Source: Thermoproteota archaeon
GTDB taxonomy: Archaea > Korarchaeota > Korarchaeia > Korarchaeales > JAOZGB01
Assembly: GCA_037917685.1 (NCBI GenBank)
Contig: JAVCBU010000006.1
Location: forward strand, 352,001 to 416,000
Length of the DNA stretch: 64,000 bases
Reading direction: 5' to 3'
The notes under the pieces are model-generated. The model saw only the letters and a list, made by a program, of their open reading frames with translations, ran no database searches and had not been told where the DNA came from. A program made the position numbers and the translations under genes. Positions 55,445 through 64,000 of the stretch are shown in pieces. Position 1 is the first letter of the stretch. Each line of letters begins with the position of its first letter.

Positions 55445-56619
55445 AGGCATTAAGCATACCATCAAGGTATGGTCCAGACATAGACGTCAACATGTACAGC
55501 CCTTCAAGAAGCAGCTATGCATCAGTAACTGAGGAAATGACCCTCAGGGCCCTCGACGTTGGTGTAACAGCTGAGGGGCGCGCTGGCACCTACTTCCAGG
55601 TTGACAGCTCCACCGTAAAGGAATCTGTTGAAGAGATGTACCATGGCAAAGTAGAGATATCAAGTATCAAAGAAGCTCTTAGAAACCATACTTGGCTTAA
55701 AGAATACTACTGGAAGGCAGTAGACCCAGCAGCCGATAAGTATACAGCTACAGCATACTTTGAGGGGGTGCTAGGGTACTTCATAAGGATAAGAGAGGGA
55801 GAAAAGGTGGATCTACCGGTTCAATCATGCCTATACATGGCATCCCAGGGGGGAAGACAGGTAGTACACAACATCATAGTAGCCGAGCCGGGCTCGGAGG
55901 CACACCTGATAACAGGCTGCGTAACAGGCAAACAGGTGGATACCGGGCTCCATATAGGCGTATCAGAGTTCTACGTTGGGAGAGATGCCCACCTAACGTT
56001 CACCATGTTCCACGACTGGGGCCGAAACCTCCACGTGAGACCAAGAACCGGGATCATACTTGAAAATGGGGCGAGCTTCACCAGTAACTACATACTCCTC
56101 AGACCTGTAGGCAGCGTCCAGACATACCCCTACGCATTTTGCAGTGGAGACTCATGTGCTGTAAGGTTCACATCGCTAATCTACGGAGCCTCATCATCAA
56201 TCATAGATGTCGGGGCAAAGGCGATCCTTAAAGGCGAAGACTCGAAGGCTGAGATAATTTCAAGAGTAATAGCAACAGAACATTCCAAGATATACGCCAG
56301 AGGGTTACTGAAAGGCTTAAACAAATCTTCAAGAGGGCATCTCGAATGTTCAGGCCTACTTCTATCGGAGAATGCCGAGATACACGCTATTCCGGAGCTG
56401 CAGGGCATAGCGATGGGCGCGAACCTGACACACGAGGCAGCCATCGGAAAAATAGCCGAGGAGGAGATACAGTACCTTATGGCCCGGGGTCTAAGCGAGG
56501 AGGAGGCAACGAGCCTTCTAATAAGAGGTTTCATGGATGTGGAAATCCTCGGACTACCACCACACCTCACAAGGCAGGTAGACCTGATGATTAGCAAAGT
56601 TTTAAAGGGAGCATTCTAG
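55417..56619 (+). CDS. sufB: Fe-S scaffold SufB/SufD family (SmsB-type)
   Basis: Q.VHNIIVAE, ITGC, GHLECSGL, IPEL, LTHEAAIG, YLMARG. Confidence 0.92.
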   Translation: MQRSKEEVMKALSIPSRYGPDIDVNMYSPSRSSYASVTEEMTLRALDVGVTAEGRAGTYFQVDSSTVKESVEEMYHGKVEISSIKEALRNHTWLKEYYWKAVDPAADKYTATAYFEGVLGYFIRIREGEKVDLPVQSCLYMASQGGRQVVHNIIVAEPGSEAHLITGCVTGKQVDTGLHIGVSEFYVGRDAHLTFTMFHDWGRNLHVRPRTGIILENGASFTSNYILLRPVGSVQTYPYAFCSGDSCAVRFTSLIYGASSSIIDVGAKAILKGEDSKAEIISRVIATEHSKIYARGLLKGLNKSSRGHLECSGLLLSENAEIHAIPELQGIAMGANLTHEAAIGKIAEEEIQYLMARGLSEEEATSLLIRGFMDVEILGLPPHLTRQVDLMISKVLKGAF

Positions 56620-57296
56620 CCTTGCCCTCCTAAAGCCTCTTCATACGCGCATAGAAGCTTACATAGCACCACCCAGGCGTCTAGGGGCCTCTCGTACACT
56701 GAAACTTTGTAGTCAGCTCTATCCAGAACCCTTTCAGGTAGTTCACCGTGGGGAAACGCGCCGACTACTACTAGGGGGTTTTTAACCTGGCTGAACAGTT
56801 GCCTAAGCTTTCCAGGTGGGTAGTAGTCCCCCTTCTCGGTGAAAGCTATAACTTCGTACCCTGGAAACCTGTCGAAAACATCCGATATTTCGCCTTTCTC
56901 CGCCTCCATCAGCGGCTCCCCAGTCGGCGGTACCCTCCCCAGTCTAAGGAGCTGGCTCATGAGCCCCTTAAACCTTTCATAGTGTCTAGGGAGCCTAACG
57001 TTATCGCCGATCCTTATGATTATGTCCCTGCAGGTGTGCACTATTATCCTAAGCTTCCCCTCCCTGTACAGCGGAGAGCCTGTCAAGGTTAGAAGGCAGA
57101 AATGGACGATGTCAGGTCTACCTCTCCGCCTCCAGCCCTTAAGAGTCTTCATCGCTGTGTGATGCAGGGAATCATCAAGGATAATATTGAGGGGAGATGT
57201 ACCCCTGCGCCTTGCATGCCGCACTATTATCGGGTGATAAGCTATCTTCACTGGGACTGTTTCAAGTGAGGCATCGGCAAGTACAACTGTAAGCAT
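56616..57296 (-). CDS. nep1: rRNA pseudouridine N1-methyltransferase Nep1/EMG1
   Basis: LETVP, ILD.S.H, GRPDIVH, RLPR.Y.RF.GLM.QL, GAFPHG. Confidence 0.94.
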   Translation of the reverse strand: MLTVVLADASLETVPVKIAYHPIIVRHARRRGTSPLNIILDDSLHHTAMKTLKGWRRRGRPDIVHFCLLTLTGSPLYREGKLRIIVHTCRDIIIRIGDNVRLPRHYERFKGLMSQLLRLGRVPPTGEPLMEAEKGEISDVFDRFPGYEVIAFTEKGDYYPPGKLRQLFSQVKNPLVVVGAFPHGELPERVLDRADYKVSVYERPLDAWVVLCKLLCAYEEALGGQG

Positions 57297-57298
57297 TG

Positions 57299-58618
57299 CT
57301 ATCTTATCCTAATATACTCGTAAGCCTTTTTCGACGGTTCAAAGCAGTACTTAACCTCCTGGAAGTCCCTTCTAAACTCCCTGACATCATCCGCAACCTT
57401 CCCGGGATCCTCCTTGTCGATGATAACTCTCTTGATGAAGCTGGCTACATCCTTCATATCCTCCTCTCTCATGCCTAGCCTTGTGATCTCCGAGGTTCCA
57501 AGCCTTATGCCTCCAGGCTTTCTAAAGTCCCTCCCCATCTTTATGTCCCATGGAAGCAGGTTTCTATTTACGATTATCCCAGCATCCTCCAAGGCCTTCT
57601 CAGCCCATGCACCATCACCGTACTCGGAGATGTCCACTAGGATTGTATGGCTCTCCGTGAAGCCTCTATCCGCTGCTACAACCTTAAACCCTATGTCATA
57701 TAGCGCCTGGCCCAAGGCCTTAGCATTCTTTATAACCTGCCCCGCATACTCCCTGCCAAACTCCAGGAACTCCGCCGCCGCCACCGCCAAGGCTGCAACG
57801 TTATGCAGATGGTGGTTACTTGTAACCCCCGGGAACACAGCCTTCTTAATCTTCTCCATATGCTCATCATTATCTGTTATAATCCCACCATGCTGCGGCC
57901 CGAACAGTGTCTTATGCGTGGAAAAGGACACAGTGTCAGCCCCCTCCTTAAGCGGGTCTTGGAAGTAGCCTGCAGCTATAAGTCCTGCGACATGTGCAGC
58001 GTCATAGTTCACAATAGCCCCAACCTCCCTGGCAGCCTCAGATATTTCCCTAACTGGATCCGGGAATAGGAACACGCTCGCGCCAAGCATTATAAGCTTT
58101 GGCTTATACTTCCTGATCCTCTCAACAGTTCTGTCAACGTCAACCTCCATCTTTTCATAGTCAACCGCAAGGTACTCCACGTTTAGCCCGTGAACAGCAC
58201 CAGCAGTCCCTCCAATGTGGGTTCCCTTCTTCCCTATAAGAGGGCCCATGCTGATATGGCCGCCTGAAACTATGCTTCTAGCCATCATCGTGTCTCCAGG
58301 CTTTGTGAAAGCGGTATATATGGCAAGGTTAGCCACAACGCCCGATACAGGCCTAACATCCGCGTGCTTGCATCTGAAAAGCTTTTTCACAAGCTCTATA
58401 CATAGAAGTTCAACCTGGTCTATGTACCTGCAGCCGGCGTAAACCCTTTCGCCAGGCCATCCCTCAGCATACCTGTGGCTGAAATCACATACCTCAGCCT
58501 CCTTAACAGCCGGGGAGACAATATTCTCCGAAGCTATTAGGGGAATGGCGCCCTCAAACCACCTGTGATGCTCCTCAAGAAGGCTGAAAACCTTATCATA
58601 GTAATCCCTACCGCTCAC
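57299..58618 (-). CDS. glyA: Serine hydroxymethyltransferase
   Basis: LIASEN, RYAEG, SG..AN, GGHIS, DAAH, STHKT..GP, GIRLGT. Confidence 0.96.
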   Translation of the reverse strand: MSGRDYYDKVFSLLEEHHRWFEGAIPLIASENIVSPAVKEAEVCDFSHRYAEGWPGERVYAGCRYIDQVELLCIELVKKLFRCKHADVRPVSGVVANLAIYTAFTKPGDTMMARSIVSGGHISMGPLIGKKGTHIGGTAGAVHGLNVEYLAVDYEKMEVDVDRTVERIRKYKPKLIMLGASVFLFPDPVREISEAAREVGAIVNYDAAHVAGLIAAGYFQDPLKEGADTVSFSTHKTLFGPQHGGIITDNDEHMEKIKKAVFPGVTSNHHLHNVAALAVAAAEFLEFGREYAGQVIKNAKALGQALYDIGFKVVAADRGFTESHTILVDISEYGDGAWAEKALEDAGIIVNRNLLPWDIKMGRDFRKPGGIRLGTSEITRLGMREEDMKDVASFIKRVIIDKEDPGKVADDVREFRRDFQEVKYCFEPSKKAYEYIRIR

Positions 58619-59163
58619 CCCTCCTCCACCTCACCATGCCTATAGGGCTCACCAACTATTAAGCAGTAGGGGTCACCCTTAGCGATACACTTAGGCTCCC
58701 TAGCTACAATCCTAACATCCAGCCCTGACGTGTCAGCGATAAACTGGAGTATGCCAGCGATACCACCACGCCAAGAGTGGCATACAGACCTTTCAGCTTC
58801 CTTCCACTCCTCCGCTATCGAAGCGTCGATCCTAACCTCAGCTCTTGGAGTGTCTGGGTCGAAGCTCACAATCTTAAAGCTTCCCCACCCCCTCAACGAG
58901 GCATCATGCAGGTACTTCTTCAGGATATCTCCGCCCTTAACCTTGAATATATCTGACTGGTGCTGCGCAAACATATACCCGCTCTTAAAGCCAGCCCTGT
59001 ACATCACGGTCCTAGCAGCGTTAACCCCTAAAACCTCCTCGACACTCTGCTGTATGAAAGCTATATAGTTCCTAGTAGTCAATATCATAGGATAACCGTC
59101 TAAAACAAGCCTCCCATCCTCGTCGATCTTCAGCCGTAGGAGAAGATCTTTAAGCTCATCCAT
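58615..59163 (-). CDS. Stand-alone V4R (4-vinyl reductase) domain protein
   Basis: GWG, CH...G..AG, E..CIAKGDPYC Zn-ligand pattern; GGTGA RBS before ATG 59163. Confidence 0.88.
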   Translation of the reverse strand: MDELKDLLLRLKIDEDGRLVLDGYPMILTTRNYIAFIQQSVEEVLGVNAARTVMYRAGFKSGYMFAQHQSDIFKVKGGDILKKYLHDASLRGWGSFKIVSFDPDTPRAEVRIDASIAEEWKEAERSVCHSWRGGIAGILQFIADTSGLDVRIVAREPKCIAKGDPYCLIVGEPYRHGEVEEG

Positions 59164-59167
59164 AACA

Positions 59168-59515
59168 TCACCTATAAAGCTCAAGTGCAAGCTTCTTGAC
59201 AGCCATCACTGTGAGAGAAGGCTTCTCCCTGGTCAATGCAACTATAGCCCTTTCATCTCCCGCACTCGAAACGACAATGGTCCCCTCAGCACCCTCAACC
59301 ACGGCAGCCATAGTTCTACCCATCTTTAACATGTTAGAAAGCTTAATAGCCACACTCAAAAACGCTGAACCCGTGGAAACCACGTCGTCAACTGAGACAT
59401 CCTCCGGAAGCCCCCCGGCCAAAATCATACCGTCAGGCTCCACCACTGCTACGTACTCAACCCATGGATACGACTTTTTAAACTCTCTAATAAAATATTC
59501 AAAGTCACCTTTCAA
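59168..59515 (-). CDS. Roadblock/LC7 (MglB-like) domain protein
   Basis: VAVVEPDGMILA, helix, G, VVEG..G.IVV..AG pattern; 115 aa. Confidence 0.85.
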   Translation of the reverse strand: MKGDFEYFIREFKKSYPWVEYVAVVEPDGMILAGGLPEDVSVDDVVSTGSAFLSVAIKLSNMLKMGRTMAAVVEGAEGTIVVSSAGDERAIVALTREKPSLTVMAVKKLALELYR

Positions 59516-59567
59516 CCGTTAAGCCACCCCATCAAACCACTATTTTAAAGATTAAAAAGTTTGAACC

Positions 59568-60023
59568 CTACAACTGAAGCAACCTAGCCCTCAAACTCCT
59601 TGTCAAAGAATACCTCCTCTCCCTCTCCCCACCCCCAACCTCCTCAACAATACCCTCAGACCTCAGATACTCTAGCCTCCTCGAAATAACACCCCTAGAA
59701 GCCTTCCCCCTCCTCCGTCTAACCTCCTCAGTTATCTGCGAAATATTAAGAGAGCCCTTCTCAGCGAGCACCTCAACAATATGCATAGAAATATCATCAC
59801 CAGCAATCTGAGGAAGAGACTTCAGCCTCGAAAGCTCCTCCACAAACCAGACATACCTAGAATAAAACCTGACAAGTCTCCTAACCAGGAAGAGAAGATC
59901 CGCAACATCCTGGTCCTGCCTCCCCTCCCTGACAACCCGCTCAAGAGACTCAAGCCTCCCGGCAATCCTCTCAAGCTTCTCCTCAATCTTCCTCAGCCTT
60001 GAAGCCAAATCCTCGTCTCCCAA
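59568..60023 (-). CDS. Winged-helix DNA-binding protein with N-terminal coiled coil
   Basis: Coiled coil LRKIEEKLERI..RLESLE; wHTH IVEVL...LNISQITEEVR...ASR..ISRRL..L..EGIV. Confidence 0.75.
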   Translation of the reverse strand: MGDEDLASRLRKIEEKLERIAGRLESLERVVREGRQDQDVADLLFLVRRLVRFYSRYVWFVEELSRLKSLPQIAGDDISMHIVEVLAEKGSLNISQITEEVRRRRGKASRGVISRRLEYLRSEGIVEEVGGGERERRYSLTRSLRARLLQL

Positions 60024-60324
60024 GACCGATCAACCTAAGGAAATCCCTAAAACCCACCGGAGGATAAACACACAGCGAAACATCATCAACAAACCACCCA
60101 GGAAGCCCATACCTCCTTATCTCCCTCCTAAACACCCACCTAGCCCTCCAAGCAGCAAACCTCAGCCGAATGTACAACCATAGAAGCCCCGTAGCCAACC
60201 TAACAGACAGCCAAAGCCCAACAACGAAGGCCCACAGGAGAACCAGAGCATCCCTAATCCTCGCCAGCCTCCCTCTCCTCTTCCCCGATATCCCAACGCC
60301 TAGACCAAGCCTTCCTAGACTCAA
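59983..60324 (-). CDS. Hypothetical basic/amphipathic small protein (start uncertain)
   Basis: Hydrophobic N-terminal half, then WRARWVFRREIRRYGLP; overlaps both neighbours like an operon gene. Confidence 0.55.
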   Translation of the reverse strand: MSLGRLGLGVGISGKRRGRLARIRDALVLLWAFVVGLWLSVRLATGLLWLYIRLRFAAWRARWVFRREIRRYGLPGWFVDDVSLCVYPPVGFRDFLRLIGLGRRGFGFKAEED

Positions 60325-60637
60325 AACCCTTCATACTAACAATCTCCTCCAGCACACTCTGAAATATCGTCCTAACATCAATGACCTGCGACTTAGCAAT
60401 CTCCAATGCCTCCTCCTCAGGAATCCCAGCCTGCACAAGCTCCTTGTAGCTCTCACCTATAGCCCTAGCTCTCTCACGAGCAGCCTCAGGAGACAAGAAA
60501 ACATTGAGAAATTCAAGCAACGGCTGAAAAACCTCTCTCATCAGCCCAGGAACCTCCCTCCTGATAACCTCCATAAACTCCTTAAACTCCTCGATATCCT
60601 CCCTCCTTTTTCTAGCTTTCAGAACATCCTCACCCAT
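60254..60637 (-). CDS. Hypothetical acidic alpha-helical protein
   Basis: 127 aa; VPGL and YKELVQAGIPEEEALEI motifs. Confidence 0.7.
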   Translation of the reverse strand: MGEDVLKARKRREDIEEFKEFMEVIRREVPGLMREVFQPLLEFLNVFLSPEAARERARAIGESYKELVQAGIPEEEALEIAKSQVIDVRTIFQSVLEEIVSMKGFESRKAWSRRWDIGEEEREAGED

Positions 60638-60824
60638 AACACATCACTAGCAACACAATCGCCCACTACATAAAAATAAAATGCAAAAAACAGCTCAAAA
60701 AATGAACAACCCAGCCCCCAAGAAAACTACCACCCAACAACACTACAAAACCCTCAACCCATTCGTACAGAAACCCCTAACCCCCAACCTTCGTACCTAC
60801 ATTAAATATAACATATACTTACTA

Positions 60825-62300
60825 CTATCTTCTTCTAAGCCTCGGGTTTACGATTTCATCGATGGCATACCCTATCAACACGAACGACAGAGAAAGCAAC
60901 GAGATGCAGATTCCAGGCGGTAAAACCCACCACCAGTCCTTGTAAGCCCCCCAATACTGCACATCATGGAGCATCATCCCCCAGGTCATCGTATTTGGGT
61001 CCCCGAGCCCTAACCAGCTTAGTGCTGCCTCTACTGTGATTATTGTGGGTACTGTGAGGGCGAGATTTACGTAGACAAGTGACAAGACGTTTGGTAGGAG
61101 GTGTCTGATAATTATGTGCCCTGCTCCCGCGCCTGCGGCTCTCGCCGCTTCTACGAATGCTCTTTCTTTGAGGCTTAGGACCTGTGATCTTATTATTCTT
61201 GAGAAGGACATCCAGCCGAGGAGTCCGAGGAGTATTACGAGGTTCCATATGGATGATCCTAGTACTGCTATTAGGACTAGGACTAGGGGTAGGAAGGGTA
61301 TGACTAGGAGCATGTCTGCGAATCTCATTAGGATTTCGTCTACCATTCCTCCGAGGTATCCTGATACTAGGCCTACTATTAGCCCTATTACTACTCCTAC
61401 GAATGCTGCCATTAGTCCTACGAATAGGGATATTCTGCTTCCCCATATTAGCTGTGAGAATATGTCTCTTCCGAAGTGGTCTGTGCCTAGTAGTCCGAAG
61501 GCTGTTCCGTATAGTTTTATGTCGTAGTCGTCGATGTACAGGTTGAAGTTGTTGTAGTCTTCTGGGTATAGTTGTGCTTCTATTCCTATCTTGTACTTGC
61601 CGGGGTTGTTGAATATTACTTGCGATGGGTCTATTAGGACGTCTTTGAATACTTTGATCTTCATCTGGCTTGACCACGAGTCTGCGTGTTTGAATTCAGC
61701 CCATTCTTTTCGTGGGGTTATTCCTTCCTCCCAGATGTAGAATTTTTCTCCATCATTGAGTCTTTCTATGAAGACTTTGACGGTTATTCTTCCGCCTTCC
61801 GCCTTGAGCTTTGCAGCTAGGTATATCTTGAATCTTGCGGGGTATCCCGAGTATGGGTAGTCTATCTCCTTGTACACTGTAACTGTTGGTTTTTCATTAC
61901 TTGTTCCTATTTTTGTGAATTTTATGATCATGCATCCCGGGATTGTTTCGTTTCCGTAGCCCTTTTCCTTGGCCCATTCTACGAGTGTCTCCCATCCTGG
62001 GGTGGAGGTTTCTACCGTCCATTCCCTTGTGGATTCGGGGTTGCAGAAGTCTGGATCTTCTACTGGGAAGATGTTTAGGCTGTAGTTTGCCCCGGATAGT
62101 TTGACAAGCCATACTGGTTTCGCCCTTGTCCCGGCAAGTGTTTTGTCTTTTAGTGGGTCGTATGGGGCTATGTAGGGGGCTAGAATTGCTATTAGTATGA
62201 ATACGATTAGTATTCCGAGACCTATTATTCCTTTTCTGCTTCTCCGGTATATTGACCAGAAGTTTTTGGCTCTTTTCATCATGATTTCGTATTTTATCAT
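60825..62300 (-). CDS. dppC: Oligopeptide/dipeptide ABC permease (DppC/OppC) with large extracellular insert
   Basis: LGTDHFGRD, G.R.SL, FVEAARAAGA, EAALS.LGLG, TWG; start at ATG 62300 after a GGTGAAGG RBS. Confidence 0.92.
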   Translation of the reverse strand: MIKYEIMMKRAKNFWSIYRRSRKGIIGLGILIVFILIAILAPYIAPYDPLKDKTLAGTRAKPVWLVKLSGANYSLNIFPVEDPDFCNPESTREWTVETSTPGWETLVEWAKEKGYGNETIPGCMIIKFTKIGTSNEKPTVTVYKEIDYPYSGYPARFKIYLAAKLKAEGGRITVKVFIERLNDGEKFYIWEEGITPRKEWAEFKHADSWSSQMKIKVFKDVLIDPSQVIFNNPGKYKIGIEAQLYPEDYNNFNLYIDDYDIKLYGTAFGLLGTDHFGRDIFSQLIWGSRISLFVGLMAAFVGVVIGLIVGLVSGYLGGMVDEILMRFADMLLVIPFLPLVLVLIAVLGSSIWNLVILLGLLGWMSFSRIIRSQVLSLKERAFVEAARAAGAGAGHIIIRHLLPNVLSLVYVNLALTVPTIITVEAALSWLGLGDPNTMTWGMMLHDVQYWGAYKDWWWVLPPGICISLLSLSFVLIGYAIDEIVNPRLRRR

Positions 62301-62314
62301 TTCCTTCACCTCTT

Positions 62315-63307
62315 CTACTCGTATTTTACTCTTGGGTCTATTACGCCATAGAGTAGGTCTGCTATGAAGTTTGCTATTATTACTGCGAGGCATGAGATGT
62401 AGAAAGTTGCCATTAGGACTGGGTAGTCTCTGAATGTTATTCCCTGGTAGATGTAGGTTCCTATGCCTCTCCATGAGAATACTGTTTCGGTTAGGATTGC
62501 TCCTTGGAGTATGAACGCAAATGATAGCGTCGCATTTGTTACGAGTGGAAGCATGGCGTTTCTAAGGGAGTGTTTGAAAAGTACCACTTTCTCTGATAGT
62601 CCTTTCGCTCTCGCTGTTACTATGTAGTCTTCTGTTAGAGTTTCGAGTACGGTGCTTCTTACGAGAAGGACGTAGCCGCCTAGGGTTACTAGGAAGAGGG
62701 TTACCCCTGGTAGGACCATATGCCATAGTAGGTCTAAGATTTTTGCCAGGGGCTCTGTGGGGGCTGGCCTGCTCATTGTTCCTGCTAGTGGGAAGTATAT
62801 TTTGCCCCCTGTCCATTCCCTAAGCCAGTAGCCGAAGATCATTAGGAATACCATTCCGATCCAGAATGTCGGGAGGGCATAGGCGAATAGGGATGATATC
62901 GTGGCCGTTAGGTCGCTTATTTCTCCTCTTCTTGAGGCTGCTCTTACGCCTAGGATGACTCCGATTAGGATGGCGAAGAGGGTTGATACTCCTAGGAGGA
63001 GTAGGGTGTTCGGGAGTCTTTCAAGGATCTCGTCTTTTACGGAGTTTCTCGTGTAGAAGGAGTAACCGAAGTTCCATGTAAGCATGTTAACCATGTAGCG
63101 CTTGTACCTGACCCACATGCTTTCACGGAGCCCGAACTGTTCGATTAGGACTTCAACTTGTTCGGGCTTAAGCCTGTATGTGGACGCTAGGATTGAAACG
63201 GGGTCTGCAGGCATGGCCATGAAGATTATGAAGTTAAGTGTCATGGCGAAGAATAGCAGTATTACCATGTAGATTGTTCTACGGAGTATATATGTTTTCA
63301 AGCCCAT
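62315..63307 (-). CDS. dppB: Oligopeptide/dipeptide ABC permease (DppB/OppB)
   Basis: RLPNTL, PTFW, DYIVTARAKGL, H..RNA, ETVFSW.GIG, DYPV, DPR. Confidence 0.94.
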   Translation of the reverse strand: MGLKTYILRRTIYMVILLFFAMTLNFIIFMAMPADPVSILASTYRLKPEQVEVLIEQFGLRESMWVRYKRYMVNMLTWNFGYSFYTRNSVKDEILERLPNTLLLLGVSTLFAILIGVILGVRAASRRGEISDLTATISSLFAYALPTFWIGMVFLMIFGYWLREWTGGKIYFPLAGTMSRPAPTEPLAKILDLLWHMVLPGVTLFLVTLGGYVLLVRSTVLETLTEDYIVTARAKGLSEKVVLFKHSLRNAMLPLVTNATLSFAFILQGAILTETVFSWRGIGTYIYQGITFRDYPVLMATFYISCLAVIIANFIADLLYGVIDPRVKYE

Positions 63308-63561
63308 CTTTTCATCAAGGGTTAAATGGTGATCCAAGAGGATATAAAGGTTAGTCTTAACTGTTTCGATGTATACCCTGAAATCGAGCCTTTATACTTC
63401 TCCGCTGGCTCATCTTTTCAGTTTTAATAGTTCTATAGGGGTTTCTGCGGTTTAAAACTTTTAATAGCCTGTGAGAATTAGTTTTCTGATACTGGGTTAA
63501 TGGTTTAAGATGGTTTGAAAGTTTAGGGGGTTCAGGTTAATAAAAAAGGGGTGGGTTAGGC

Positions 63562-64000
63562 TTACTCCTTCTTCTTACGTGTTAGTACGAAGCCTACGCC
63601 GACGACTACTATGATCAGTACTACTACGCCTAGTGCTAGTGCCATTGGGAACTTCTTGGCGACAGTCATGGCTCCTGTTGTCTCTGCGCTGTAGGTTCCG
63701 GTTGGGTTGGTGTACGTGGCTGTAACTCTTACTGTGTAGTCTCCCGGCTCAGATGGCGCTGTTACTGTTCCCTCGTATGTCCCGCCTGACGTATGGGTTA
63801 GGGTTGCTGTTGAGACTACTGCGCCGTCCTTCAGTATCTCAGCTTTAACTGTGGCGTTTGTCACGGCTGCGCCTGTGTAATCCTTAACCGTTACTGATAC
63901 TGTTCCGGTCTCTCCAGCCTTTAGTGTGCCTGGTGTTGTTAAGGCTTCAAGTGTTATGCTCTTTCCTGGGTGTCTCCTGAAGTAGTTTCCGTTGGCCTCG
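63562..64000 (-). CDS. C-terminal part of a membrane-anchored surface protein, probably the peptide ABC substrate-binding protein (5' end off window)
   Basis: Frame is open to the window edge (EANGNYFRRHPGK...), then an Ig-like domain and TM tail ending RKKKE; lies upstream of dppB. Confidence 0.7.
   Translation of the reverse strand, partial: EANGNYFRRHPGKSITLEALTTPGTLKAGETGTVSVTVKDYTGAAVTNATVKAEILKDGAVVSTATLTHTSGGTYEGTVTAPSEPGDYTVRVTATYTNPTGTYSAETTGAMTVAKKFPMALALGVVVLIIVVVGVGFVLTRKKKE

What the first reader, a model, noticed from the sequence alone, without database searches (positions are those of the whole stretch)
57300..64000. Extreme strand-composition switch at ~61.0 kb inside an intact gene: candidate origin-like boundary
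Seen: all genes from 56.6 to 64 kb are on the minus strand, yet their synonymous positions flip. Left of ~61.0 kb the + strand is C/A-rich and very G-poor at 59.5-60.8 kb, so codons end in G/T. Right of it the + strand is G/T-rich and codons end in A/C (ACA, GTA, GCA, CTA). The flip lies within the last ~60-70 codons of dppC (...GCA GCA CTA AGC TGG TTA GGG...GTG CAG TAT...GTT...TCG TTG CTT TCT), whose frame is intact, so gene orientation, an inversion or a foreign insertion do not explain it. Established: a C-rich to G-rich switch on the + strand is the polarity typical of a replication origin. Inference: a strand-specific mutational boundary, possibly an origin with no neighbouring cdc6/orc1 and no clear ORB, ~200 bp from the A-rich intergenic region 60638-60824.
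Basis: partly seen in the sequence, partly recalled or inferred. Interest (0 to 1): 0.7.

Follow-up and report, generated by a model that had tools for sequence, protein, structure and literature searches.

The report
Origin-like mutation cusp inside dppC
Around 61.0 kb the silent codon positions on the two sides have been pushed to opposite base compositions by a strand-specific mutation process that starts at this point and fades within a few kilobases; it is one of about fourteen such points in this archaeal genome, behaves like a small local start site of DNA synthesis rather than the main replication origin, and I found no published description of the pattern.

Summary
In dppC, 71 of 425 upstream codons end in G/T against 39 of the last 65 (Fisher p 1e-12). 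The + strand keto skew (G+T minus A+C) falls gradually to -0.43, jumps at about 61.0 kb, then decays from +0.27 to zero over 6 kb.

The join is not an assembly artefact. Contigs from two sequencing runs bridge it, and a metagenome contig from a different organism (82-90% identical) shows the same intragenic switch, more weakly.

It is not unique. The genome has 14 upward jumps of this kind and 1 downward. A complete genome of the same order has none. At other sites the skew ignores gene orientation. One site coincides with the only ORB-like inverted repeat, 5.4 kb from orc1/cdc6.

This site has no ORB repeats, no initiator gene nearby and no long-range sign change. I read it as a local, two-sided, origin-polarity mutation gradient with a C>T and A>G signature on the outward-running strand. 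A fixed site of bidirectional DNA synthesis is the likeliest cause; a replichore-defining origin is unlikely.

Earlier notes of this scan describe similar sawtooth patterns on other archaeal DNA, anchored on GGCC. That anchor fails here. Four literature searches found no description of the pattern.

The parts
56616..57296 (-). EMG1/Nep1 methyltransferase gene; far end of the left tail (coding keto3 +0.06)
   Evidence: Pfam PF03587, E 4e-57; third positions
57299..58618 (-). Serine hydroxymethyltransferase gene; left tail (coding keto3 +0.23)
   Evidence: Pfam PF00464, E 1e-79
58615..59190 (-). DUF5943/V4R-type protein gene; left tail (keto3 +0.32)
59168..59515 (-). Roadblock/LC7 protein gene; left tail (keto3 +0.43)
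59568..60023 (-). Small winged-helix (ArsR/Csa3-like HTH) protein gene; keto3 +0.78, with 89% of third positions G or T
   Evidence: weak HTH hits only; conserved in L019
59983..60324 (-). 113-codon ORF with no family; protein rich in G, L, V, R, F and W (residues with G/T-rich codons); keto3 +0.63
   Evidence: an ORF of 101 codons at the same place in L019
60254..60637 (-). 127-codon ORF with no family; first gene left of the switch; keto3 +0.70 (four-fold sites: T .66, G .25)
   Evidence: conserved in L019
60638..60824 (.). Intergenic spacer. It is A/C-rich on the + strand, so almost C-free with G and T runs on the minus strand. It is part of the left tail, not a separate AT-rich unwinding element.
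   Evidence: no direct repeats; L019 has about 1 kb of extra DNA here
60828..61022 (-). Last 65 codons of dppC, already on the G/T-rich side (39 of 65 codons end in G/T)
61000..61140 (.). Switch zone (centre of the cusp). The sign change lies at 61,000-61,040. A GC-rich stretch with a CGCGC word lies at about 61,129.
61023..62297 (-). dppC codons 1-425 (OppC_N plus BPD_transp_1 permease); right tail (71 of 425 codons end in G/T, keto3 -0.67)
   Evidence: Pfam
62318..63337 (-). dppB permease gene; right tail (keto3 -0.52)
   Evidence: Pfam
63562..64000 (-). 3' end of the substrate-binding protein gene. It runs on to C6:417,625 outside the window (keto3 -0.31). The right tail ends near the operon's 5' end at C6:419.8 kb.

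Best explanation
About 61.0 kb is the centre of a local, two-sided mutational gradient, which I call a cusp. On each side, the strand that runs 5' to 3' away from the centre has gained T and G at the expense of C and A at silent sites. That strand is the minus strand to the left and the plus strand to the right. The effect is strongest next to the centre and fades over 4-6 kb.

Shown here:
- the gradient and its sharp centre inside dppC;
- the transition signature (C>T, then A>G, on the outward strand);
- its recurrence at about 14 sites with one polarity;
- its independence from gene orientation at other sites;
- its presence at the ORB-type candidate origin;
- its different strength in two sister lineages.

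Inferred mechanism: at these fixed sites DNA synthesis starts in both directions. For the first kilobases the strand that serves as lagging-strand template is left single-stranded, or is copied with low fidelity, for much longer than at an established fork. Deamination-type changes then pile up on it. A very long first lagging-strand fragment would give exactly a gradient that is maximal at the start site and falls to zero at its far end.

This particular site is a secondary or non-canonical initiation site. It is not the origin that sets the replichores.
For: (1) Shape. Keto skew goes from -0.05 at C6:409 kb to -0.43 at 412 kb, jumps to +0.1 to +0.27 at 413-414 kb, and is back to 0 by 419 kb. 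Four-fold sites on the G/T-rich strand have the same make-up on both sides, T about .45-.66, G .25-.38, C .07-.11, A .02-.10.

(2) Polarity. There are 14 upward and 1 downward jumps with |D| >= 0.3 (binomial p 0.001). A complete genome of the same order has 0 up and 0 down at >= 0.25. It has 0 of 1,417 ORFs with |keto3| > 0.4, against 37 of 1,547 here.

(3) Orientation independence.
- PHO4 transporter (+ strand, coding keto3 +0.61) lies next to the NrdG, NrdD and acetyl-CoA synthetase genes (- strand, -0.51 to -0.60).
- T2SSF (+ strand, -0.41) lies next to a ParA/MinD-like gene (- strand, +0.71).
- Within 3 kb of the 14 sites, 24 of 33 ORFs pointing away and 32 of 36 pointing towards the centre carry the positional sign. 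Left-side means are -0.20 and -0.19.

(4) Origin control. The cusp at C6:133.1-133.3 kb sits on the only exact inverted pair of an ORB-like 11-mer. The pair flanks 99 AT-rich nt, 5.4 kb from an Orc1/Cdc6 gene. That site also shows a 30-40 kb sign change.

(5) In situ evolution. Against the syntenic relative L019, transitions are lopsided only near the centre (p values).
- dpp side, window 61-63 kb: own A/C versus relative G/T 183, against 41 the other way (p 1e-22).
- Tail side, window 59-61 kb: own G/T 113 against 56 (p 1e-5).
The dppC skew grows across lineages: L020 -0.11, L019 -0.23, own -0.67.

(6) Signature. Per-site differences on the outward strand are C>T .22, A>G .13, G>A .05 and T>C .04-.05. 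They are the same on both sides and show no strong neighbour context. The same pair of biases (A>G over T>C, C>T over G>A on the top strand right of oriC) is reported for mismatch-repair-deficient bacteria (PMC11109965, passages read).

(7) Genes assumed to be highly expressed are not skewed. Thermosome, EF-1alpha, EF-2 and L2 have keto3 -0.22 to 0.00.
Against: - There are no ORB-like or other repeats at the centre.
- No gene or DNA motif is shared among the 14 centres.
- There is no initiator gene nearby.
- The centre lies in coding DNA.
- There is no long-range sign change. The skew is -0.05 at 390-410 kb and again -0.05 to -0.14 at 420-428 kb.
- Genes to the right of this and several other centres point towards the centre. 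They would meet an outgoing fork head-on.
- Ordinary forks leave only about 0.03-0.05 of skew in this genome, so a special mutagenic mode has to be assumed.
- Tails end near the ends of transcription units at several sites, which hints that transcription plays some part.
- At this locus itself all genes lie on one strand, so orientation independence is shown only at other sites.
- No replication data exist.
Confidence: 0.42

Rival explanations
1. This is a classical Orc1/Cdc6-dependent chromosomal replication origin that fires once per cycle and sets replichores.
For: The polarity and local shape are the same as at the ORB-bearing candidate origin at C6:133.2 kb. The local amplitude is equal or greater.
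Against: There are no ORB-type repeats and no AT-rich unwinding tract; GC is 0.44-0.48 at 60.6-61.2 kb. The nearest Cdc6_C hit is 286 kb away. The background skew has the same sign on both flanks. Fourteen such sites in 1.8 Mb compares with at most four mapped origins in any archaeon, according to the review PMC4010727 (passages read).
Confidence: 0.1
2. The cause is divergent transcription or R-loops. A strong bidirectional promoter exposes the non-template strand on both sides, as at mammalian transcription start sites.
For: The polarity fits. The left tail is a minus-strand transcription unit that starts 370 nt from the centre. Tails stop near unit ends. Genome-wide, coding keto3 falls from the first to the last third of genes: difference 0.052 in 743 genes, positive in 60%, p 9e-17. 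The control genome shows no such fall. Upward jumps favour intergenic, TATA-like words.
Against: The switch lies inside dppC, about 200 nt upstream of its stop codon. At C6:326.1 kb it lies inside a pilin gene, and at C9:27.0 kb inside a cas2-like ORF. The right tails would need 6-12 kb antisense RNAs through T-rich DNA. Genes expected to be highly expressed are unskewed. Convergent gene pairs with gaps of 150 nt or more jump upward as much as divergent ones, +0.042 in 97 pairs against +0.057 in 104. Genes pointing towards the centre fit as well as genes pointing away. The within-gene decline follows from any sawtooth with jumps between genes, so it does not discriminate.
Confidence: 0.15
3. 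This is a recurrent break or nick at a fixed site, for example self-cutting by a site-specific, restriction-like or mismatch nuclease. It is repaired by resection and copy synthesis that is mutagenic over a few kilobases.
For: The process is local, decays with distance and ignores genes. Earlier scan notes on other genomes tie such switches to a 4-base palindrome. Here a CGCGC or GCGCG word lies within 120 nt of 6 of 14 centres, against 4.7% of random places. NucS/EndoMS, which cuts both strands at G/T-type mismatches (PMC11109965, passages read), was found in this genome but not in three cusp-free or unscanned relatives. L019 carries extra DNA with a weak Hjc-like ORF exactly at the centre.
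Against: If the damage is deamination of resected 3' tails, the polarity should be the reverse of what is seen. This is inference from the geometry of resection. The CGCGC link is post hoc. It is absent at the two other strongest sites. The 306 of 317 CGCGC or GCGCG sites left after dropping those with a strong jump show no sawtooth. Divergence near the centre is not raised: 0.12-0.17 differences per site against 0.09-0.23 elsewhere.
Confidence: 0.15
4. This is a mosaic made by horizontal transfer or recombination between differently composed DNAs, or an assembly chimera.
For: There is a sharp composition change inside a conserved gene, in a genome assembled from a metagenome.
Against: The region is bridged by single contigs in two runs. 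The same junction and the same gene order over 21 kb occur in a different organism's contig. The tails are gradual. There are 14 upward and 1 downward jumps. Substitutions are lopsided in situ. The only paralogue of dppC in the genome is 36% identical.
Confidence: 0.03

Closest known systems
Archaeal Orc1/Cdc6-type origins (an AT-rich unwinding tract flanked by ORB repeats, next to an initiator gene; review PMC4010727, passages read)
   Same: The switch has the sign seen at this genome's own ORB-like site at C6:133.2 kb, and the same local cusp shape.
   Different: This site has no ORB repeats, no AT-rich tract, no neighbouring initiator gene and no replichore-scale sign change, and it lies in coding DNA.
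Replication-associated strand asymmetry with upward skew jumps at origins (bacterial oriC; sawtooth 'N-domains' of the human genome, recalled). Also the leading/lagging transition bias of mismatch-repair-deficient bacteria (PMC11109965, passages read).
   Same: There is an abrupt upward jump with a gradual decline. C>T and A>G are in excess on the strand that runs away from the start point. The skew is independent of gene orientation.
   Different: The range here is 1-12 kb, not a replichore or 100 kb to Mb. The amplitude is near saturation at silent sites (up to 89% G/T). There are about 14 sites in 1.8 Mb. The rest of the genome is almost unskewed.
Deamination gradients of vertebrate mitochondrial DNA (recalled; also named in an earlier scan note)
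   Same: C>T and A>G occur on one strand, with a strength that grades with position, as expected from time spent single-stranded.
   Different: Here the gradient is two-sided and chromosomal, with many centres. The replication mode is unknown.
Strand asymmetry centred on transcription start sites in mammals, plants and fungi (recalled, not read here)
   Same: The cusp is local and kilobase-scale, with opposite signs on the two sides.
   Different: The centres here lie inside genes or between convergent genes. Genes expected to be highly expressed lack the skew.
Keto-skew sawtooth or mosaic anchored on GGCC in other archaeal contigs
   Same: Silent sites flip between A/C and G/T regardless of genes, with sharp A/C-to-G/T switches and gradual returns.
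   Different: GGCC is neither depleted (observed/expected 1.12) nor linked to jumps here (mean D -0.004 over 5,079 sites). The patches here are fewer and longer.

Membership tests
Archaeal Orc1/Cdc6-type oriC | Conserved repeats (ORB) flanking the unwinding region | tested here: not met
   Window 60,500-61,300 has 0 direct-repeat families and only three weak inverted pairs, 74-75% complementary. The ORB-like 11-mer of C6:133.2 kb has no copy within 1.5 kb of the centre.
Archaeal Orc1/Cdc6-type oriC | AT-rich unwinding element | tested here: not met
   GC is 0.44-0.48 in 400-nt windows at 60.6-61.2 kb, against 0.43-0.47 for the contig. The spacer is strand-skewed, not AT-rich.
Archaeal Orc1/Cdc6-type oriC | Adjacent initiator gene (cdc6/orc1 or whiP) | tested here: not met
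   There are two Cdc6_C hits in the genome, at C6:126.5-127.8 kb and C1:427.6-428.8 kb. A small wHTH gene lies 1 kb away, but it has only weak ArsR/Csa3-type hits.
Archaeal Orc1/Cdc6-type oriC | Replication actually starts there (marker frequency, 2D gels, nascent strands) | not testable with these tools
   Only contigs with one depth figure each were available.
Replication-associated strand asymmetry | Strand-specific and independent of transcription direction | tested here: met
   This holds at other cusps: PHO4 against NrdD, T2SSF against ParA-like. ORFs pointing away and towards the centre fit alike. At this locus all genes share one strand.
Replication-associated strand asymmetry | The sign persists over the replichore | tested here: not met
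   The tails vanish after 4-6 kb, and the background sign is the same on both flanks.
Transcription-start-centred asymmetry | The switch coincides with a transcription start and scales with expression | tested here: not met
   The switch is inside dppC, about 200 nt before its stop codon. Thermosome, EF-1alpha, EF-2 and L2 have keto3 -0.22 to 0.00. No RNA data exist, so starts are inferred.
Single-strand deamination gradient (mitochondrial type) | Excess C>T and A>G on one strand, graded with position | tested here: met
   Rates are C>T .22, A>G .13, G>A .05 and T>C .04-.05 on the outward strand of both sides. The gradient is seen. Direction rests on an unpolarised pair plus a small outgroup sample.
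GGCC-anchored sawtooth (earlier scan notes) | A/C-to-G/T switches sit on GGCC | tested here: not met
   The nearest GGCC to this centre is 355 nt away. The median distance from a random place is 128 nt.

The most novel reading that the evidence does not exclude
This archaeon's chromosome carries a dozen or more fixed sites at which DNA synthesis starts in both directions. Many of these lie outside any Orc1/ORB module, and some lie inside genes. Each start leaves kilobases of displaced strand single-stranded, so the initiation map is written into the silent sites. The site at 61.0 kb would then be about as active as the canonical origin. That would be a dispersed, eukaryote-like or recombination/R-loop-primed initiation landscape in an archaeon, readable from sequence alone.
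Probability: 0.25. Interest if true: 0.9.

Novelty: new variant of a known kind. Interest (0 to 1): 0.7.

Why it matters
If the cusps mark initiation sites, sequence alone would give a map of where DNA synthesis starts in an uncultured archaeon. That map would include non-canonical sites. It bears on the open question of how archaea that can do without origins start replication.

Whatever the mechanism, the mutational force is local, strong enough to fix about 90% of silent sites, and shifts the amino-acid make-up of small proteins. That matters for three kinds of analysis that assume one composition per genome:
- codon-usage work;
- detection of horizontal transfer;
- gene finding, since long shadow ORFs appear in the skewed DNA.

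The contrast between sister lineages (own, L019, L020) gives a natural experiment for dating the process.

Tried and rejected
- **GGCC as anchor** (lead from earlier notes): no link.
- **All 5- to 7-mers against jump size:** only AT-rich words and CGCGCG stand out. After dropping sites with a strong jump, the remaining 306 of 317 CGCGC or GCGCG sites show no sawtooth.
- **tRNA genes at the centres:** the nearest is 2.8 kb from any centre, and most are more than 100 kb away (29 tRNAs found).
- **Known RNA families at 58-64 kb:** one chance-level hit only.
- **The bacterial sigma-70 and terminator scan** is not informative for an archaeon.
- **Shared genes or DNA among the 14 centres:** none, except one pair of CARDB-like surface-protein genes.
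- **Same-genus genome G001:** no match to this region. In 281 kb of its roughly 500 kb there are no jumps >= 0.3, where about 2 would be expected, so this is inconclusive.
- **Coverage peak:** the runs found are stored as contigs with one depth figure each, so no marker-frequency reading is possible.
- **Loss of deamination repair as a cause:** UDG and endonuclease V are present here as in the relatives.
- **Polarising changes with L020:** only 49 informative sites, of which 17 are unresolved. This is weak.
- **ORB word near orc1 in G004:** a single copy about 4 kb from the gene, with no inverted pair. I did not pursue G004's own skew pattern.
- **Literature:** four searches found nothing that describes kilobase-scale keto-skew cusps in archaea. 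Supplements were not seen.

Full report
**1.

The window is G000:C6:352,001-416,000 of a 1.81 Mb, 22-contig archaeal assembly. From 56.6 kb to the window end, every ORF with family support is on the minus strand. In order these are EMG1/Nep1, SHMT, a V4R-type protein, Roadblock/LC7, a small wHTH protein, two ORFs without a family, then dppC and dppB. The operon continues outside the window with the binding-protein gene and two ATPase genes.

The + strand keto skew (G+T minus A+C) changes as follows:
- It falls from about -0.05 at C6:409 kb to -0.43 at 412 kb.
- It crosses zero at about C6:413.0 kb (window 61.0 kb).
- It reaches +0.27 at 413.8 kb and is back at zero by 419 kb.

At third codon positions the contrast is far stronger:
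- dppC codons 1-425 have A .49, C .35, G .13, T .04.
- The last 65 codons have 39 ending in G or T.
- The three downstream genes have 81-89% G/T.

Within dppC the difference is 71 of 425 against 39 of 65, p = 1.2e-12. The sign change falls at window 61,000-61,040.

**2. It is not an artefact or a mosaic**

One 9,975-nt contig in each of two public runs covers 58,500-62,212 without a difference. Both runs may be the source, so this only excludes an error of this particular assembly.

Independent support comes from a metagenome contig, L019. It is 82-90% identical in DNA and syntenic over 21 kb. Its dppC has the same G/T-ending 3' codons.

The tails are gradual, not block-like. The only paralogue of dppC in the genome is 36% identical.

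**3. It is one of many, all with one polarity**

I scanned the genome with 1200-nt arms for jumps with |D| >= 0.3. There are 14 upward (A/C to G/T) jumps and 1 downward.

The strongest are C6:326.1 kb (+0.61), this one (+0.57), C6:133.1 kb (+0.55), C9:5.3 kb and C14:253.3 kb. Their profiles have the same shape: a gradual approach, an abrupt jump and a gradual return. The tails are 1-12 kb long and sometimes one-sided.

Controls:
- A complete 1.59 Mb genome of the same order (G004) has no jump >= 0.25 in either direction. None of its 1,417 ORFs has |keto3| > 0.4, against 37 of 1,547 here.
- In 281 kb of the only same-genus genome, nothing reaches 0.3. That amount of sequence is too little to decide.

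**4. The skew belongs to the DNA strand, not to the genes**

Right of C6:133 kb, a PHO4 transporter gene on the + strand has coding keto3 +0.61. Its neighbours on the - strand (NrdG, NrdD, acetyl-CoA synthetase) have -0.51 to -0.60.

Left of C6:326 kb, T2SSF (+ strand) has -0.41 and a ParA/MinD-like gene (- strand) has +0.71.

I then took the 69 ORFs within 3 kb of the 14 centres. Of those pointing away, 24 of 33 carry the sign expected from position alone. Of those pointing towards the centre, 32 of 36 do. The left-side means are equal. The sites were chosen by the jump itself, so only the equality between the two classes is informative.

Switches also fall inside other genes. The C6:326.1 kb switch lies in a UpsA-like pilin gene. 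The C9:27.0 kb switch lies in an ORF that I read as cas2 from its translation; that reading is my own and comes from no family search.

**5. Link to replication**

Cdc6_C hits lie at C6:126.5-127.8 kb and C1:427.6-428.8 kb.

At C6:133,207-133,353 lies the only exact inverted pair of an ORB-like word, with C-runs beside it, flanking 99 AT-rich nt. Four copies of a second 12-nt word lie around it, two in each orientation. The likeness to ORBs is recalled, not tested against a model.

This is the best candidate for the canonical origin. It carries a cusp and also a 30-40 kb sign change. The 10-kb means are -0.06 to -0.00 on its left and +0.15, +0.06, +0.05 on its right.

The second cdc6 gene has no cusp.

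The cusp at 61.0 kb has none of these marks. The skew is -0.05 at 390-410 kb and again -0.05 to -0.14 at 420-428 kb.

**6. The process is still at work, or was recently**

I compared own DNA with L019 in 1-kb bins.
- Window 62-63 kb: own A/C where L019 has G/T, 102 against 20 the other way.
- Window 61-62 kb: 81 against 21.
- Window 60-61 kb: the reverse direction, own G/T 53 against 31.
- Window 59-60 kb: own G/T 60 against 25.
- Further out the counts are mostly near parity. Some bins are not: 48:19 at 63-64 kb, 64:37 at 66-67 kb, 49:82 at 54-55 kb and 73:45 at 53-54 kb.

Total divergence near the centre (0.12-0.17 per site) is within the range elsewhere (0.09-0.23).

dppC keto3 before and after the switch is:
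- own: -0.67 and +0.20;
- L019: -0.23 and +0.14;
- the more distant L020: -0.11 and +0.02.

With L020 as outgroup, 49 sites differ between own and L019 before the switch. Sixteen changed in own, 10 of them G>A or T>C. Sixteen changed in L019, 8 of them A>G or C>T. Seventeen are unresolved. The sample is small.

L019 also has about 1 kb of extra, unskewed, low-GC DNA between the dppC stop codon and the G/T-rich tail. It holds a weak Hjc-like ORF (E 0.004, below the family cut-off).

**7. Signature**

On the outward-running strand, per-site differences are C>T .218 and .216, A>G .131 and .134, G>A .048 and .048, and T>C .038 and .053 (dpp side and tail side).

The neighbour context is weak. C>T is somewhat higher before G (.34 and .30, against about .2). 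This is the deamination pair of changes.

It is also the pair that exceeds its complement on the top strand to the right of oriC in mismatch-repair-deficient bacteria (PMC11109965, passages read).

**8. Weighing mechanisms**

*Transcription.* It fits the polarity, the position of the left tail, and the fact that tails end near unit ends. It fails in four respects:
- the centres lie inside genes;
- the right tails would need 6-12 kb antisense RNAs;
- genes assumed to be highly expressed are unskewed;
- convergent gene pairs with gaps of 150 nt or more jump upward about as much as divergent ones.

Coding keto3 also falls from 5' to 3' across genes genome-wide. The difference is 0.052 in 743 genes, p 9e-17. 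The slope is negative in 68% of 166 operon-like runs. The control genome shows neither. This decline is real, but any sawtooth with jumps between genes would produce it.

*Break repair with resection.* By the geometry of resection it predicts the opposite sign, if exposed 3' tails are what gets deaminated.

*Bidirectional synthesis from the centre.* This fits the sign, the signature and the origin control. The lagging-strand template would be exposed, or badly copied, for the first kilobases. It needs an unproven assumption, namely that young forks are far more asymmetric than established ones. It also leaves unexplained what defines the site.

I therefore favour a local, origin-like initiation site (0.42) over a classical origin (0.10), transcription or R-loops (0.15), break repair (0.15) and mosaic or chimera (0.03).

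**9. Relation to what is known**

The review PMC4010727 (passages read) defines archaeal origins by three features: an AT-rich region, flanking ORBs and a neighbouring initiator gene. It reports at most four mapped origins in one archaeon. This site fails all three sequence criteria.

The closest analogues are skew jumps at origins, mitochondrial deamination gradients and start-site asymmetries in eukaryotes. The last two are recalled, not read.

Four full-text searches gave no description of kilobase-scale, near-saturating keto-skew cusps in an archaeal chromosome.

Earlier notes of this scan report similar patterns on other archaeal DNA, anchored on GGCC or on tRNA-Lys genes. Neither anchor holds here.

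Noticed in passing
G000:C6:132,750-133,360 (outside the window; locus L014 6,750-7,360): Candidate canonical origin. It has an exact inverted pair of an ORB-like 11-mer with C-runs, flanking 99 AT-rich nt. Four to five copies of a 12-nt word lie around it, in both orientations. It is 5.4 kb from orc1/cdc6. An archaeal histone-like ORF (my reading of the translation) lies between the orc1 gene and this site.
   Followed up: partly
G000:C1:170,638-171,585: A NucS/EndoMS gene (NucS_C, E 6e-33) is present in this genome. It was not found in G004, G006 or G014, or in the incomplete G001. The enzyme cuts G/T-type but not A/C-type mismatches (PMC11109965), which could turn any strand difference in fidelity into keto skew. 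The gene itself is skewed (keto3 +0.46).
   Followed up: partly
window about 61,129, and five other cusp centres (C14:253,444; C14:273,342; C9:26,859; C11:3,881; C1:123,673): A CGCGC or GCGCG word lies within 120 nt of 6 of 14 centres, against 4.7% of random places. CGCG and GCGC are rare in this genome (observed/expected 0.29 and 0.40). The finding is post hoc, it is absent at two of the three strongest sites, and the bulk of such words show no sawtooth.
   Followed up: yes
L019:11,480-12,500: The close relative has about 1 kb of extra, low-GC, unskewed DNA exactly between the dppC stop codon and the G/T-rich tail. It holds a 112-codon ORF with a weak Hjc (Holliday-junction resolvase) hit, and a 90-codon ORF. 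On the dppC side, the skew is much weaker in that lineage.
   Followed up: partly
G000:C6:325,904-326,341 (L013 7,907-8,341): A UpsA-like type IV pilin gene holds the strongest switch of the genome in its middle. A perfect 18-nt inverted repeat with a 15-nt spacer lies 500 nt away, at C6:326,615-326,665.
   Followed up: partly
window 59,983-60,637 and 60,170-60,673: The two small ORFs next to the centre encode proteins made largely of residues with G/T-rich codons (G, V, L, F, W, R, E). A 167-codon shadow ORF opens on the opposite strand. Gene callers could be misled in such DNA.
   Followed up: no
window 60,828-62,297: This dppC is a long form of 490 residues, with about 230 residues between the OppC_N helix and the permease domain. 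Among relatives, both about 300-residue and about 480-residue forms occur.
   Followed up: no
window 62,183-62,285: The contigs of both public runs break here, and short pieces end in library-adapter-like letters. This is a technical feature of those assemblies and has no bearing on the switch at 61.0 kb.
   Followed up: no
G000:C6:424,550-428,298 (outside the window): There is a near-duplicate of a three-gene stretch: part of an ATPase-like ORF plus two small ORFs, repeated about 1.85 kb apart at the contig end. The + strand skew falls to -0.14 there, as on the approach to another cusp.
   Followed up: no
G000:C11:3,990-4,080: Tandem copies of a unit of about 43 nt begin right at one of the weaker cusp centres.
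   Followed up: no
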